Source: Rhynchopus sp. YZ270_cl-10 (taxonomy: Eukaryota). From it: a stretch of DNA of 64,000 nt. This document shows, piece after piece, positions 37,880-48,934 of the stretch. The stretch covers positions 558,001 to 622,000 of the forward strand of contig OZ037840.1 of the NCBI GenBank assembly GCA_964035575.1, given 5' to 3'. Positions within the stretch are counted from its first letter, which is position 1. The number at the start of each line of letters is the position of its first letter. The notes beneath the pieces are model-generated. The model saw nothing but the letters and a program-made list of their open reading frames with translations. It did no database searches and was not told the origin of the DNA. A program made the translations under genes and the position numbers.

Positions 37880-39694
37880 ATGAGACTAAGGTTACCACGA
37901 TGGCTCGACGCTGTGCTGTCCATTGACGGGACGCTGGACAAGAAGGAGTGGAAGAAGCGGGCCCTGTTCTTCGCCTTCAATGTGCTTGCCGTGTTCTTTG
38001 TGTCGATGAACACCGCTGTGTCTGTCGGTGTGTACGAGAGCCGCCCTGTCTCGCTCGTTGGAGGTGTGTGCTACTTCGCAGGCGGCATCATAGGGCTGGG
38101 GAACGTTCTCATGAAGCGCCAGCTCACAACACGTGTAGTTGTGACAGTGGCGTACATTTACGTTGCAGCAATCCTGCTGATAGACGTCACGTCACGCACA
38201 CTAGGGATGACTGTCTGGGCCACTCTGGTGCTGGTTGTGGACCTGCTCTTGGTGATGCAGGTGCCACAGCGTTACACTGCGGGGATCGTGCTGTTGACAA
38301 TTGTATGGCTGATCGTGATGTCGATGGAGGAAGGCTTCCGGTTTGGTGTGCTCGACCTGCCTGGGCTTGTGCCGCAAGAGGGTGAGAATGGGAGAAAGGC
38401 GCATTTCAGTCACAACTGTGCTGAGCTTCCTTGTGCAAGCGACACAAGCCAGCAACTCATTCACTCGCTTGCTGTCTTCGTGGTGGACTTCTTCGCAACC
38501 CGACAATTTGCACGAGACATCTTGAAGGAGCAAGAGTCGATGGAGAGGACGATCAACGCTGTGCAGGAGATCGCCTCCCTTCTTGCGGGGTACGACGTGG
38601 ATATGGTGGCGGAGCTGCTTGAGGCTCATGAACACGAACTGCCTGAGGGGATGACGACAGCACTGCGGAGTCTTGAGCAGAACCTGCGTGTGTACAAGGC
38701 GTACCTCCCGCAGACGTGTCTGCCGTTTGAGAGACTGGCGACTGACGCTTTTTGCTTGGAGGTGTCTTGTGAGTCTGTGTCGTTGCCATCCTCTGTATCA
38801 TCTGAAAGAAGAAAGACTGTGTTCCAGCAGGCTTTGGACCTCTCGTTCACAAGTGCAACACTGCTGACACTGAACATCAAAGACACGTTGCACCTCTTGG
38901 AGGAAGACAGTGCACGCTTCTCCGACCTGTTCACAACTCTTCTTCTGAAGACGTTGCAGGCAGCAGAAGTGCGTCGTGGGATGGTGGACGTCTTTGTTGG
39001 GGACAGGATCCACTGCTCGTTCAACACGTCGAAACGGTGTGCGTCACACGCAACCTCAGCACTGCACGCTGTCACATTGTTGCTGCGTGGTGGTGATGCC
39101 ATTGCACCACATGTGAACATGGGAGTTGCGACTGGGAAGGTGCTGCGTGGTGACATGGGGTGTGCAGTGATGCGCCGCTTCAGCATGGTGGGTGCTCTTG
39201 TGCGTGACGTGAACGTGCTGGAACGTGCTGGCCGTGTGTTGGGGTGCAGTGTGCTGTGCAACCGCCTCTGCTTCAGCGATGCTGAGTGCGAACACCAAAT
39301 GCGTCTGGTTCCTTGCAAGGTGGAAGTTGGTGAGTCCCGTGAGGAGGTTGTTGCTGAGTTGGTTGTGCCGAAGGAGGCAGCGGCGCACAGACAAGAAGCA
39401 GAGTGGATGTACATGCTGGAAGGCAACAAGCAGTGGTATGAGTACAACACAGCAGTCCTTGGGTACCTGCAGGGCGACGTCTCTGCTTCCGCAGTGGCAG
39501 CAGCAGCAGCGTGCAGCAAGGTTGGTGGGGATAATGCCGACAATATTGCCCAGGACGTCTGGGGGGTCTCGGTCGACATTGCTCAGTTCTCGGAGGTGTG
39601 CGAAGTTTTACAGCTTCCTGTGCAGACGAGACGGATTGCGAGCATGACTACAACCTCTTCTAATGCTTGTGTGAAGTGTGAGACGATTTCATAG
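37880..39694 (+). CDS. Multi-TM receptor with degenerate class III cyclase domain, array gene 1
   Basis: N-terminal TM region and coil are homologous to the 10649 cyclase. Cyclase-like motifs TLLTLNI, GMVDVFVGDRIHCSFN, MGVATGKVLRGDMG and RFSMVGALV. Confidence 0.9.
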   Translation: MRLRLPRWLDAVLSIDGTLDKKEWKKRALFFAFNVLAVFFVSMNTAVSVGVYESRPVSLVGGVCYFAGGIIGLGNVLMKRQLTTRVVVTVAYIYVAAILLIDVTSRTLGMTVWATLVLVVDLLLVMQVPQRYTAGIVLLTIVWLIVMSMEEGFRFGVLDLPGLVPQEGENGRKAHFSHNCAELPCASDTSQQLIHSLAVFVVDFFATRQFARDILKEQESMERTINAVQEIASLLAGYDVDMVAELLEAHEHELPEGMTTALRSLEQNLRVYKAYLPQTCLPFERLATDAFCLEVSCESVSLPSSVSSERRKTVFQQALDLSFTSATLLTLNIKDTLHLLEEDSARFSDLFTTLLLKTLQAAEVRRGMVDVFVGDRIHCSFNTSKRCASHATSALHAVTLLLRGGDAIAPHVNMGVATGKVLRGDMGCAVMRRFSMVGALVRDVNVLERAGRVLGCSVLCNRLCFSDAECEHQMRLVPCKVEVGESREEVVAELVVPKEAAAHRQEAEWMYMLEGNKQWYEYNTAVLGYLQGDVSASAVAAAAACSKVGGDNADNIAQDVWGVSVDIAQFSEVCEVLQLPVQTRRIASMTTTSSNACVKCETIS

Positions 39695-39982
39695 TTGTTG
39701 TTGCGTTGTGCATGAGACAGTGGATACGACCGTAAGGTGCCCGAGTTAGTGAACTGTGACAGTTTTGTTTTTGCGTGCTGTTCTTCGGACACAACGTGTC
39801 CCTGACAGTGATTTCTGCCTTGCTCGTGAAGACACATGTCTTTCTAGATAAGTGTCGCCATTGCATGACCCGAGTAGCTGAGGTACTGAGACACAGGATA
39901 AAAGATGTTACTTCATTTCTCCACTTCCAATCACCCACCCCACCCCCTGTACAGACACAGCAGGTACAACTTGTCATACACA

Positions 39983-46363: not shown

Positions 46364-47161
46364 GCAACAGTTTAAGTGTGAGACCGGTGTCTACATCTCT
46401 ATCGCCCGACCTCTCTGTTTACACTGCTCCCGTGCTCTGCCACTGCTTTCAAAAGTAGCAGAGCGGGTTTACGGCTTTACCCATTTTGACAATGATCTCT
46501 CGAGAAACCACCCCCACCCCCAGACGTATATACCCCGACCACCCATCAGTCTGCATTTCCCTTTTCTCAGATTTCCTGCACTGCCTGAACTTGCATCAGG
46601 GTTTACTTTTCCACCTTGTAGGAAACAGACCCGCGCAGCCTTCCATTTTCCATCAACATCCCCAGTCGTTGTCTCCGGTTTCCTTCCTGATCCCTGCAAC
46701 AACCTGCTCGACATCAGTCCTGCATTCCGTGTCAATAGAGAAGGGAACCTACAACTTTGCAGATGAACGACCTTCAATGTGTCAAACAACGTCTGACGCA
46801 GGCGGTTCTTGACGACCCGCATCAACGAGAACATGCGTTGCACACCTGGCCGTTCCTATTGGTAACAATAGAAGCTGTGCTGAGGCCTTTCCGCACGTCT
46901 CCCGAAGAGCAGCAGGCTTTTTTCTCTTCGACTGTATCGCTCCTTCACCCTTTTCGTGTAAGGACACATAATTCTTGCGTAGTCAACACCACAAACGACC
47001 CCACCTTTCAGGTGCTTGTCTATCGAAACACACTTCTTTTTAGTCTGCGTTCGCACGTCTCCAGTGACCGAGCAACAGGAGCTGCATGTAGCTGTGCGGC
47101 ATTTATCACAGCACCCCTCACCCCACATTTACGCAAACACAGGAGGTACAACAACTGCACA

Positions 47162-48934
47162 ATGCTGAAGGTGCCGCGATGGCTCGAAAATGTGTTATCA
47201 CTGGACGGGACGCTGGACAAGAAGGAGCAGCAGAAGAGAGTGTTGTTCTTTGCCTTCAACGTGCTCGCGTTCTTCTTCATTTCGTTATTCGTGGCTTCTT
47301 TGAGCACAACGCTGCAGGACAGACCGATTGATGTCATTGGGACTGCTCTCTTCACAATTCCGTGCTGCACAAGTATCTTAGCTGTGCTGTGCAAGGCAAG
47401 ACTGAGCACGTCTCTCGTTGTCACAATCTCGTATCTGTACGTAGGTGCAATAGTTTCCTTTGACTTCTCACTGCGTACACTCGGTGCTACAGTGTGGGCC
47501 GCACTTGTGCTGGTGGTCGACTTGCTGCTTGTGATGCAAACACCTGCACGCTACACTGTAGCAATAGTCTGCTTCACGATTGCATGGCTAGTGGTCATGG
47601 CGATGGAAGAACGTGTGCGCTTCGGTCTGCTGGACATGCCTGGTCTAGCACCACAAGGTGGTGCAGACGGGAGAAGGAGTTACTTCGACTCCTTCGTCGG
47701 GTGTACTGACCTCCCATGTCCACGTGACACGACTCAAATGCTTCTTTGTTCGTTGTCGGTGTTCGTGATAGACTTTGTTGTCACACGTCAGTTTGCGCAT
47801 GAAATCCTGAAGGAGCAGACATCAATGGAGCGGACGATCAACGCTGTGCAGGAGATTGCGTCGCTGCTTGCGGGGTACGATGTGGAGAAGGTGGCACAAC
47901 TGCTTGAGGCTCATGAACACGAGCTGCCTGAGGGGATGACGACGGCACTGCGGAGTCTTGAGCAGAACCTGCGTGTGTACAAGGCGTACCTCCCGCAGAC
48001 GTGTCTGACGTTTGAGCAGAGGATACCAGAATTTGAGCTTTCAAGCAGAGGTGTGGGTGACAGTTGCCCTATTGACACACCACCCTCGCTTTCACGAACG
48101 AGTTCGAAAGAATCGCTTTACCGAACAGTTCTCCCGCTTTCGTTGGACTTGTCTTTTACGTGTGCCACACTGCTGACACTGAACATCAAAGACACGTTGC
48201 ACCGCTTGGAGGAGGACAGTGCACGCTTCTCCGACCTGTTCACAACTCTTCTTCTGAAGGCGTTGCAAGCAACAGAAGTGCGTCGTGGGATGGTGGACGT
48301 CTTTGTTGGGGACAGGATTCACTGCTCGTTCAACACGTCGAAACAGTGTGCGTCACACGCAACCTCAGCACTGCACGCTGTCACATTGTTGCTGCGTGGT
48401 GGTGATGCCATTGCACCACACGTGAACATGGGAGTTGCGACTGGGAAGGTGCTGCGTGGTGACATGGGGTGTGCAGTGATGCGCCGCTTCAGCATGGTAG
48501 GCACACTTGTACGTGACGTGAACGTACTGGAACGTGCAGGCCGTGTGTTGGGGTGCAGTGTGCTGTGCAACCGCCTCTGCTTCAAGGAATCTGAGTGCGA
48601 ACACCACTTACGATTGGTTCCTTGCAAGGTGGAAGTTGGTGAGTCCCGTGAGGAGGTTGTTGCTGAGTTGGTTGTGCCGAAGGAGGCAGCGGCGGACACA
48701 CCTGAAGCGGAATGGATGTACATGCTGGAAGGCAACAAGCAGGGGGAGCAGTACAACACCGCAGTGCGTGGGTACCTACGGGGCGAGGTGTCTGCGAGTT
48801 CAGTGGCTGAAGCATCCCAAAGCGGCAGCAACAGAGAAGCTATGTGCAAAGCCGACGAGCTACCTGCACAGTGCGAGGTGCTGCAGCTGTCTGTGCACGC
48901 GAAGAGGCCGGCAGCTTCTCTGACTATGGTATGA
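47162..48934 (+). CDS. Multi-TM pseudo-cyclase receptor, array gene 5
   Basis: Paralog with a unique linker and tail; ATG at 47162. Confidence 0.9.
   Translation: MLKVPRWLENVLSLDGTLDKKEQQKRVLFFAFNVLAFFFISLFVASLSTTLQDRPIDVIGTALFTIPCCTSILAVLCKARLSTSLVVTISYLYVGAIVSFDFSLRTLGATVWAALVLVVDLLLVMQTPARYTVAIVCFTIAWLVVMAMEERVRFGLLDMPGLAPQGGADGRRSYFDSFVGCTDLPCPRDTTQMLLCSLSVFVIDFVVTRQFAHEILKEQTSMERTINAVQEIASLLAGYDVEKVAQLLEAHEHELPEGMTTALRSLEQNLRVYKAYLPQTCLTFEQRIPEFELSSRGVGDSCPIDTPPSLSRTSSKESLYRTVLPLSLDLSFTCATLLTLNIKDTLHRLEEDSARFSDLFTTLLLKALQATEVRRGMVDVFVGDRIHCSFNTSKQCASHATSALHAVTLLLRGGDAIAPHVNMGVATGKVLRGDMGCAVMRRFSMVGTLVRDVNVLERAGRVLGCSVLCNRLCFKESECEHHLRLVPCKVEVGESREEVVAELVVPKEAAADTPEAEWMYMLEGNKQGEQYNTAVRGYLRGEVSASSVAEASQSGSNREAMCKADELPAQCEVLQLSVHAKRPAASLTMV

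What the first reader, a model, noticed from the sequence alone, without database searches (positions are those of the whole stretch)
37880..48934. Five-gene receptor array with combinatorially shuffled sensor halves and cytoplasmic halves
Seen: two N-terminal TM types, A (MNTAVSVGVYESRPVS..NCAELPC; genes 1 and 4) and B (STTLQDRPIDVIG..GCTDLPC; genes 2, 3 and 5). These are joined to three linker/tail types: P (ERLATDAF..KVGGDNADN; genes 1 and 2), Q (ERRVT..SPESPAASG..DCNIPE; genes 3 and 4) and R (gene 5). The array reads A-P, B-P, B-Q, A-Q, B-R, so all four A/B x P/Q combinations exist. The switch falls in the conserved MERTI.(A/T)VQEIASLLAGYDV...YLPQTCL coil. The downstream spacer follows the tail type (a short spacer after P, a longer one after Q). 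Inference: recombination at the coil re-couples ligand-sensing modules to different output tails and 3'UTRs, i.e. a modular receptor-diversification system.
Basis: partly seen in the sequence, partly recalled or inferred. Interest (0 to 1): 0.85.

Follow-up and report, generated by a model that had tools for sequence, protein, structure and literature searches.

The report
Shuffled diplonemid receptors with dead cyclases
Five neighbouring genes of a marine protist (a diplonemid) are mosaics of shared front and back halves, likely made by ordinary recombination between copies, and they belong to a large, apparently undescribed family of predicted membrane receptors whose sensor part is joined in some copies to an intact-looking adenylate cyclase and in others, as here, to a likely dead one.

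Summary
The mosaic is real in the sequence. Five intronless ORFs read A-P, B-P, B-Q, A-Q, B-R; for genes 1-4 the signal flips between codons 268 and 287, and trees of the two halves conflict. The host is a diplonemid. The proteins are a six-helix membrane anchor of adenylate-cyclase type, a coil, a variable linker and a class III cyclase domain lacking four catalytic residues. A dedicated shuffling system is not supported: gene 2 is the junction of a plain 2 kb tandem duplication, the spacer follows the tail by linkage, swaps also occur across the cyclase domain, and chimeric copies are common in trypanosome arrays. Within the array the cyclase-like domain is 94-97% identical, so little output is re-coupled. 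The more interesting result lies outside the window: among 211 paralogues the same sensor modules sit on either this pseudo-cyclase (121) or an intact-looking cyclase (90), with 40 class changes on the sensor tree and twins up to 100% identical. That resembles paired receptors, untested. Junctions could not be bridged by reads, so an assembly permutation remains possible but unlikely.

The parts
37880..39694 (+). Gene 1, A-P: six-helix membrane module, coil, linker, pseudo-cyclase, tail (604 aa)
   Evidence: same A-P combination in paralogue P0006 on another contig
39983..41773 (+). Gene 2, B-P (596 aa); junction product of the 2 kb tandem duplication
42007..43797 (+). Gene 3, B-Q (596 aa); the copy modelled: membrane module aa 10-214, coil 215-283, linker 284-326, pseudo-cyclase 327-497, tail
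44579..46363 (+). Gene 4, A-Q (594 aa) with a B-like first 33 codons
47162..48934 (+). Gene 5, B-R (590 aa)
40784..40842 (+). Interval of the B-to-P switch in gene 2 (last membrane-type site to first linker-type site)
45374..45432 (+). Interval of the A-to-Q switch in gene 4
38688..42817 (+). Head-to-tail duplication of a coil-to-coil unit [P half, P spacer, B membrane part]: 38688-40793 and 40794-42817, 97-98% identical
39695..39982 (+). P-type spacer 1 (288 nt)
41774..42006 (+). P-type spacer 2 (233 nt)
43798..44578 (+). Q-type spacer 1 (781 nt)
46364..47161 (+). Q-type spacer 2 (798 nt)
10649..12715 (+). Paralogue of the other class: same membrane module and coil, then an intact-looking adenylate cyclase domain and a second degenerate cyclase domain (688 aa)
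   Evidence: (PF00211, E 5.5e-27)

Best explanation
The five genes are mosaic tandem copies of a large diplonemid family of predicted six-helix membrane receptors with a likely inactive cyclase domain, and the mosaic was likely made by ordinary unequal crossing-over and gene conversion in the blocks that stay nearly identical between copies. Shown: the mosaic, the 2 kb tandem duplication whose junction is gene 2, the low silent divergence of coil and cyclase-like blocks, and the loss of four catalytic positions. Inferred: exchanges land in the coil and in the pseudo-cyclase because those are the long near-identical blocks; the membrane module travels as one piece; the spacer rides along with the tail. 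Across the family the coil is also the last homology shared with a second class that carries an intact-looking cyclase, so crossovers there move sensor modules between active-type and dead outputs. The array proteins would most likely act as non-catalytic partners or decoys that dimerise through membrane module and coil and tune cAMP output; this last step is untested.
For: Silent divergence A versus B is above 2 in the membrane part but 0.11-0.35 in the coil and 0.05-0.15 in the cyclase-like domain for all 10 gene pairs, the mark of homogenisation. The two P-spacer-B units are adjacent and 97-98% identical with ends in the coil. In 119 of 120 paralogues (one truncated row dropped) 28 of 45 supported membrane-tree splits conflict with the C-half tree, against 5 of 34 and 1 of 28 in odd/even-column controls and 3 of 33 between the two halves of the membrane module; linker versus tail conflicts 11 of 20 and cyclase versus tail 14 of 27. 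No recombinase-like repeat in the coil: only 11-nt, 82% chance matches. Fold: membrane module matches Mtb Cya (Z 12.5, rmsd 4.5, 183 aligned), AC9 (11.4) and AC5 (10.7), the top 3 of 48,161 chains. A 69-sequence profile hits 47 PDB sequences, all nucleotide cyclases, best E 1.6e-14. Precedent: 21 of 47 T. brucei arrays hold chimaeric copies, one of them an adenylate cyclase array (PMC1855330, passages).
Against: Both switches in genes 1-4 fall in the same 58-nt interval, and none of the five genes has a linker/tail switch although the cyclase-like block is longer and as conserved; with so few events this may be chance or selection. No read or contig bridges either junction. Z 12.5 is below the tool's caution line of about 13 for helical bundles, though the top three rows are all membrane cyclases. 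The cyclase-like domain was modelled with low confidence (pLDDT mostly 30-70). No expression data for these five genes, no activity or binding data. The linker is short and fast-evolving, so its tree conflicts are partly noise.
Confidence: 0.7

Rival explanations
1. Selected paired-receptor system: recombination is ordinary, but selection keeps matching sensor modules on an active cyclase and on a pseudo-cyclase so that one ligand drives an activating and a damping receptor. Compatible with the best explanation; it adds selection for the pairing.
For: On the tree of 211 membrane modules the output class changes 40 times, against 5 on a tree of the second half of the coil. 9 of 22 multi-member sensor clusters hold both classes; 20 of 90 cyclase-class proteins have a pseudo-class twin at 70% or more. 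Twins: P0051/P0189 100%, P0100/P0200 96%, P0042/P0193 91%, P0009/P0249 88%, gene 4/P0184 79-80%. Variation peaks in helices 1-2 and predicted outer loops (28-35% consensus) with an invariant cysteine pair.
Against: Class changes are still fewer than in shuffled labels (40 versus mean 68, minimum 57), 13 of 22 clusters and most singletons are unpaired, the B sensor has no cyclase-class twin among 90 (best 47%), and most twins share a contig, as neutral local recombination predicts. Only part of the family was sampled. No signature of positive selection in the five genes (dN below dS in the membrane part).
Confidence: 0.2
2. Assembly permutation: the true order is A-P, B-Q, A-P, B-Q, B-R (one duplication of a gene pair, which would also explain the B-like start of gene 4), and the assembler swapped two coil-to-coil pieces.
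For: The four coil-to-coil pieces can be reordered into that non-chimeric array (reasoning). It needs one event instead of about three. No contig of four independent runs spans a junction.
Against: The longest exact match available for the needed A/B joins is 57 nt (genes 2/4), far shorter than other repeats here (up to 376 nt), and the contig is 1.37 Mb with at least 25 listed family members, which implies long reads. The P-B units are more alike (53 substitutions in 2021) than the Q units (74 in 1856 plus 14 gaps; p 0.02) or the A modules (48 in 709; p 2e-06), against a single duplication, though conversion blurs this. Gene-private alleles of genes 2 and 4, both P spacers and both Q linkers occur in independent runs. 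The same kind of mosaic recurs across many contigs.
Confidence: 0.07
3. Programmed or site-specific shuffling at the coil, as in a cassette or shufflon system.
For: Both array switches lie in one 58-nt interval.
Against: No repeat or palindrome beyond chance in the coil; cross-class joins lie at different points along the coil; swaps across the cyclase domain are as common; no recombinase among the 13 window proteins scanned; all five copies are whole genes, not silent cassettes.
Confidence: 0.03

Closest known systems
Six-helix membrane adenylate cyclases (M. tuberculosis Rv1625c/Cya; mammalian AC9, AC5)
   Same: Six-helix anchor followed by a helical coil and a class III cyclase domain; the anchor is proposed to be a receptor module and can be swapped for another six-helix receptor (PMC4821796 abstract and section 9; PMC9433096 passages).
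   Different: The array-type domain lacks four catalytic residues; hundreds of paralogues with hypervariable anchors; a variable linker between coil and cyclase domain.
Trypanosomatid receptor adenylate cyclases (ESAG4/GRESAG4)
   Same: Expanded euglenozoan surface cyclase family in tandem arrays with gene conversion (PMC1855330, PMC7719234 passages); the intact domain of the second class is closest to T. brucei cyclases (Z 24, 28% identity).
   Different: Those have a large ectodomain and one central transmembrane domain; here the sensor is a six-helix bundle and the array copies have no intact cyclase.
Chimaeric copies in trypanosome tandem gene arrays
   Same: Mosaic duplicates and coding/UTR discordance made by unequal crossing-over and conversion (21 of 47 arrays; PMC1855330 passages).
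   Different: Here whole modules that are 55% identical are exchanged, including between two output classes.
Paired receptors (Siglec-11/Siglec-16)
   Same: Ligand-binding part kept alike by conversion while the cytoplasmic outputs differ (PMC5701461 abstract).
   Different: Analogy only: unrelated proteins; opposite signalling, shared ligand and co-expression are not shown here.

Membership tests
Class III nucleotide cyclase superfamily (fold) | Homology to the cyclase catalytic domain | tested here: met
   Profile of 69 relatives hits 47 PDB sequences, all cyclases, best E 1.6e-14; 15 of 69 members hit PF00211 at E below 0.01; the five genes alone have no Pfam hit
Active class III adenylate cyclase | Two metal-binding Asp, substrate Lys, transition-state Asn and Arg (residue roles recalled) | tested here: not met
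   Against CyaB the first Asp is Asn, the Lys is Val/Leu, Asn and Arg are replaced; only the GD Asp is kept. The second class keeps all of them in nearly all 90 members
Active class III adenylate cyclase | Measured cAMP synthesis | not testable with these tools
   needs an assay
Six-helix cyclase membrane anchor (Cya/AC9 type) | Six-helix bundle whose last helix runs into a helical domain | tested here: met
   Confident model (pLDDT 85-98 over aa 1-200); top 3 of 48,161 chains are Cya, AC9, AC5 at Z 12.5-10.7, rmsd 4.5-6.3; Z is just under the tool's caution line for helical bundles
Six-helix cyclase membrane anchor (Cya/AC9 type) | Dimer formation through anchor and helical domain | not tested
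Trypanosomatid receptor adenylate cyclase | Large ectodomain and a single central transmembrane domain | tested here: not met
   six helices, short loops
Paired receptors | Near-identical sensor on two different outputs | tested here: met
   five cross-class pairs at 80% or more, three at 90% or more
Paired receptors | Shared ligand, co-expression, opposite signalling | not testable with these tools
   no RNA holder listed, no ligand known
Site-specific shufflon or cassette system | Fixed recombination site and dedicated recombinase or silent cassettes | tested here: not met
   the recombinase check covers this window only

The most novel reading that the evidence does not exclude
Diplonemids run a chemosensory repertoire of hundreds of six-helix receptor cyclases in which the coil is an interchange joint, and sensor modules are kept in matched pairs on an active cyclase and on a conserved pseudo-cyclase that damps or redirects the signal: a paired-receptor system in a free-living protist, and a natural library showing that cyclase membrane anchors are swappable ligand receptors.
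Probability: 0.22. Interest if true: 0.78.

Novelty: new variant of a known kind. Interest (0 to 1): 0.5.

Why it matters
The mosaic itself is ordinary array evolution. The family is what matters: whether six-helix cyclase anchors are ligand receptors is an open question (PMC4821796, PMC9433096), and here one genome holds over a hundred distinct anchor types on nearly constant coils and two alternative outputs, with natural twin pairs that make the question directly testable. The pseudo-cyclase class is conserved and transcribed across diplonemids, abundant marine protists whose sensory biology is little known, and is mostly unannotated because single copies miss the Pfam model.

Tried and rejected
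No whole genome is held for this window, so paralogues were studied as proteins only. Pfam finds nothing in the five genes or consistently in 82 close paralogues. Single-sequence and close-profile PDB searches gave only weak cyclase hits (E 0.1-0.7); Foldseek with the gene 3 model gave no match at E 0.001 and its GPCR rows were rejected. Comparison of the family profile with the intact cyclase domain of the 10649 gene was negative (0 of 121 at E 0.001), while the second, degenerate domain matched all 121. No RNA holder listed for the array. Contigs of four runs do not bridge the junctions and parts of gene 2's B module had no cover at 99% likeness; holes prove nothing; the 'goes back' joints are explained by the similar 3' ends of genes 3 and 4. 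Depth figures were not used as copy numbers. Complex prediction and a second atlas search on the cyclase-like domain were not available. Earlier scan notes: nothing found. Literature searches for a description of this family found none; 'cyclase' does not occur in the main text of PMC10161547 or PMC12697944; their supplements were not read and may list the family. Positive selection in the five genes was not seen. Repeated independent deletion of the intact cyclase domain was rejected as the origin of the pseudo class, because that class has its own conserved domain (mean 76% identity) only distantly like the second domain of the cyclase class.
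Full report
OBSERVATION. The stretch 37880-48934 holds five co-oriented intronless ORFs of 590-604 codons. Of 287 informative sites among genes 1-4, 221 pair 1 with 4, 58 pair 1 with 2 and 8 pair 1 with 3, in 11 runs against at least 84 in 10,000 shuffles; the switch lies between codons 268 and 287. AU tests reject one history for both halves. 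The spacers follow the tails. Gene 4 has a second switch: its first 33 codons are B-like.

HOST AND FAMILY. A Rab in the window has its best named relatives in Rhynchopus (by the record prefix Rhum; 67%) and Diplonema papillatum (53%), so the host is a diplonemid. Gene 3 finds 420 relatives among 7,998 scored candidates; the 120 listed are the window's five and 115 unnamed ENA proteins, 25 of the 120 on a contig of the window's own length. That the rest come from the same genome is inferred from recurring megabase contig lengths, not shown. A profile search finds 1,828 clusters at 50% identity. Of 30 representatives looked up, 11 carry a name and all 11 are diplonemid: D. papillatum, D. ambulator, D. 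japonicum, Flectonema neradi, Lacrimia lanifica, seven of them from transcriptome assemblies; they share the membrane plus pseudo-cyclase layout.

WHAT THE PROTEINS ARE. The model of gene 3 has six confident membrane helices, the last running into a long coil. Its top three matches among 48,161 solved chains are the anchors of M. tuberculosis Cya (Z 12.5, rmsd 4.5, 183 aligned), AC9 (11.4) and AC5 (10.7); these values sit just under the tool's caution line for helical bundles. Variation is highest in helices 1-2 and the predicted outer loops, and a cysteine pair is invariant. The cytoplasmic domain was modelled poorly, but a profile of 69 diverse members hits 47 PDB sequences, all nucleotide cyclases (best E 1.6e-14), and the atlas search pointed the same way. 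Aligned to CyaB, the first metal-binding Asp is Asn, the substrate Lys is Val/Leu and the catalytic Asn and Arg are gone; only the GD Asp stays (residue roles recalled). The domain is under purifying selection (dN 0.02-0.04, dS 0.05-0.15). I read it as a conserved pseudo-cyclase.

HOW THE MOSAIC AROSE. Silent divergence exceeds 2 between A and B membrane parts but is 0.11-0.35 in the coil and 0.05-0.15 in the pseudo-cyclase: these blocks are homogenised and are the natural crossover targets. The units 38688-40793 and 40794-42817 are adjacent, 97-98% identical, and begin and end in the coil: one unequal crossover between an A-P and a B-Q gene makes this duplication and creates gene 2 with its P spacer. 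An unrecombined-looking A-P paralogue exists elsewhere (P0006). Gene 4, with B-like start and A core, fits a conversion tract or a second crossover; the order of events is not unique. The coil carries no repeat beyond chance. Family-wide (119 of 120 rows, P0013 dropped as truncated), membrane and C-half trees conflict in 28 of 45 supported splits against 5 of 34 and 1 of 28 in controls, the two halves of the membrane module agree (3 of 33), and linker versus tail (11 of 20) and cyclase versus tail (14 of 27) conflict too. A nearest-neighbour test agrees: membrane-to-linker 20 of 79 and 7 of 61, tail-to-linker 23 of 91 and 3 of 61, within the membrane module 0 of 29 and 3 of 79. So there are two exchange zones, not one switch. 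Chimaeric copies were found in 21 of 47 T. brucei arrays, including an adenylate cyclase array (PMC1855330, passages). Because diplonemid genes appear to be co-transcribed and not regulated mainly at initiation (PMC10161547, passages), a swapped 3' spacer could change expression; that is inference.

THE WIDER RESULT. A sixth gene at 10649-12715 has the same membrane module and coil but continues into an intact-looking cyclase (PF00211; closest to T. brucei cyclases, Z 24) and a second degenerate domain, which is the one related to the array's. Searching with its membrane part (257 hits among 2,959 candidates, 120 listed) and pooling gives 212 proteins: 121 pseudo class, 90 cyclase class, one truncated and left out; three were classed by eye after the motif test missed them. 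On the membrane-module tree the class changes 40 times, against 5 on a tree of the second half of the coil and 68 (minimum 57) for shuffled labels (FastTree, many weak branches). Twins across classes reach 100%, 96%, 91% and 88%, and the A sensor of genes 1 and 4 has a cyclase-class twin, P0184, at 77-80%; the B sensor has none among the 90. Joins lie at different points of the coil. Nine of 22 multi-member sensor clusters are mixed. Six of seven top pairs checked by eye share a contig length, as local recombination predicts. None of the 8 cyclase-class representatives looked up carries a name, so the range of that class is unknown. This looks like paired receptors (PMC5701461, abstract), but shared ligand, co-expression and opposite effect are untested, and neutral exchange could give the same picture.

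ASSEMBLY RISK. The coil-to-coil pieces can be reordered into a non-chimeric A-P, B-Q, A-P, B-Q, B-R array. Contigs from 4 of the 8 listed runs (two studies; one may be the source sample) hold private alleles of genes 2 and 4, both P spacers and both Q linkers, but none bridges a junction. Against an error: the needed joins rest on a 57-nt match, the contig is 1.37 Mb, the duplicated units differ in divergence, and the mosaic recurs family-wide. I put it at about 7%.

LITERATURE. Six-helix anchors as receptor modules: PMC4821796 (abstract, section 9) and PMC9433096 (passages). Trypanosomatid receptor cyclases: PMC7719234 (passages). Euglena cyclase expansions: PMC6366073 (passages). Searches found no description of this diplonemid family; the library lacks most subscription journals and supplements were not read. 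One D. papillatum member is annotated 'Adenylate cyclase 1', three as hypothetical.

VERDICT. Observation confirmed; interpretation partly supported. The shuffling is most likely a by-product of homologous recombination in a tandem family, not a dedicated system, and inside this array it changes little of the output. The family, a diplonemid-wide six-helix pseudo-cyclase whose sensors are exchanged with intact cyclases, is an apparently undescribed variant of receptor cyclases. Interest 0.5.

Noticed in passing
window 10649-12715 (+): Cyclase-class member of the same family: six-helix module, coil, intact-looking adenylate cyclase, second degenerate cyclase domain.
   Followed up: yes
window 53237-61846 (+): 2,869-codon ORF: CAP (cysteine-rich secretory) domain followed by dozens of cysteine-rich EGF-like repeats and a C-terminal membrane helix; a likely surface protein.
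   Followed up: partly
window 13044-14296 and 15497-16749 (+): Tandem pair of GH27 alpha-galactosidase genes, 97.8% identical, differing in one short patch, a small example of the same patchwork.
   Followed up: partly
window 28348-29347 and 36617-37144: Related tandem repeats (249 nt x 4 and 262 nt x 2, about 82% alike) with shared flanks (29415-30012 versus 37136-37691, 81%) upstream of the array; possibly satellite or element ends.
   Followed up: no
window 7155-8576 (+): Ubiquitin-like domain fused to BspA-type leucine-rich repeats.
   Followed up: partly
window 3850-6500 and 9436-10541: Dispersed repeat pieces of 150-685 nt at 90-97% identity, one ending just upstream of the 10649 gene.
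   Followed up: no
proteins P0324 and P0333 (D. papillatum DIPPA_00503, DIPPA_00502): Neighbouring-numbered relatives with the same membrane module and two weak cyclase-like domains, a third layout.
   Followed up: no
window 34311-35201 and 50616-52199 (+): Two long ORFs (296 and 527 codons) with no Pfam match.
   Followed up: partly
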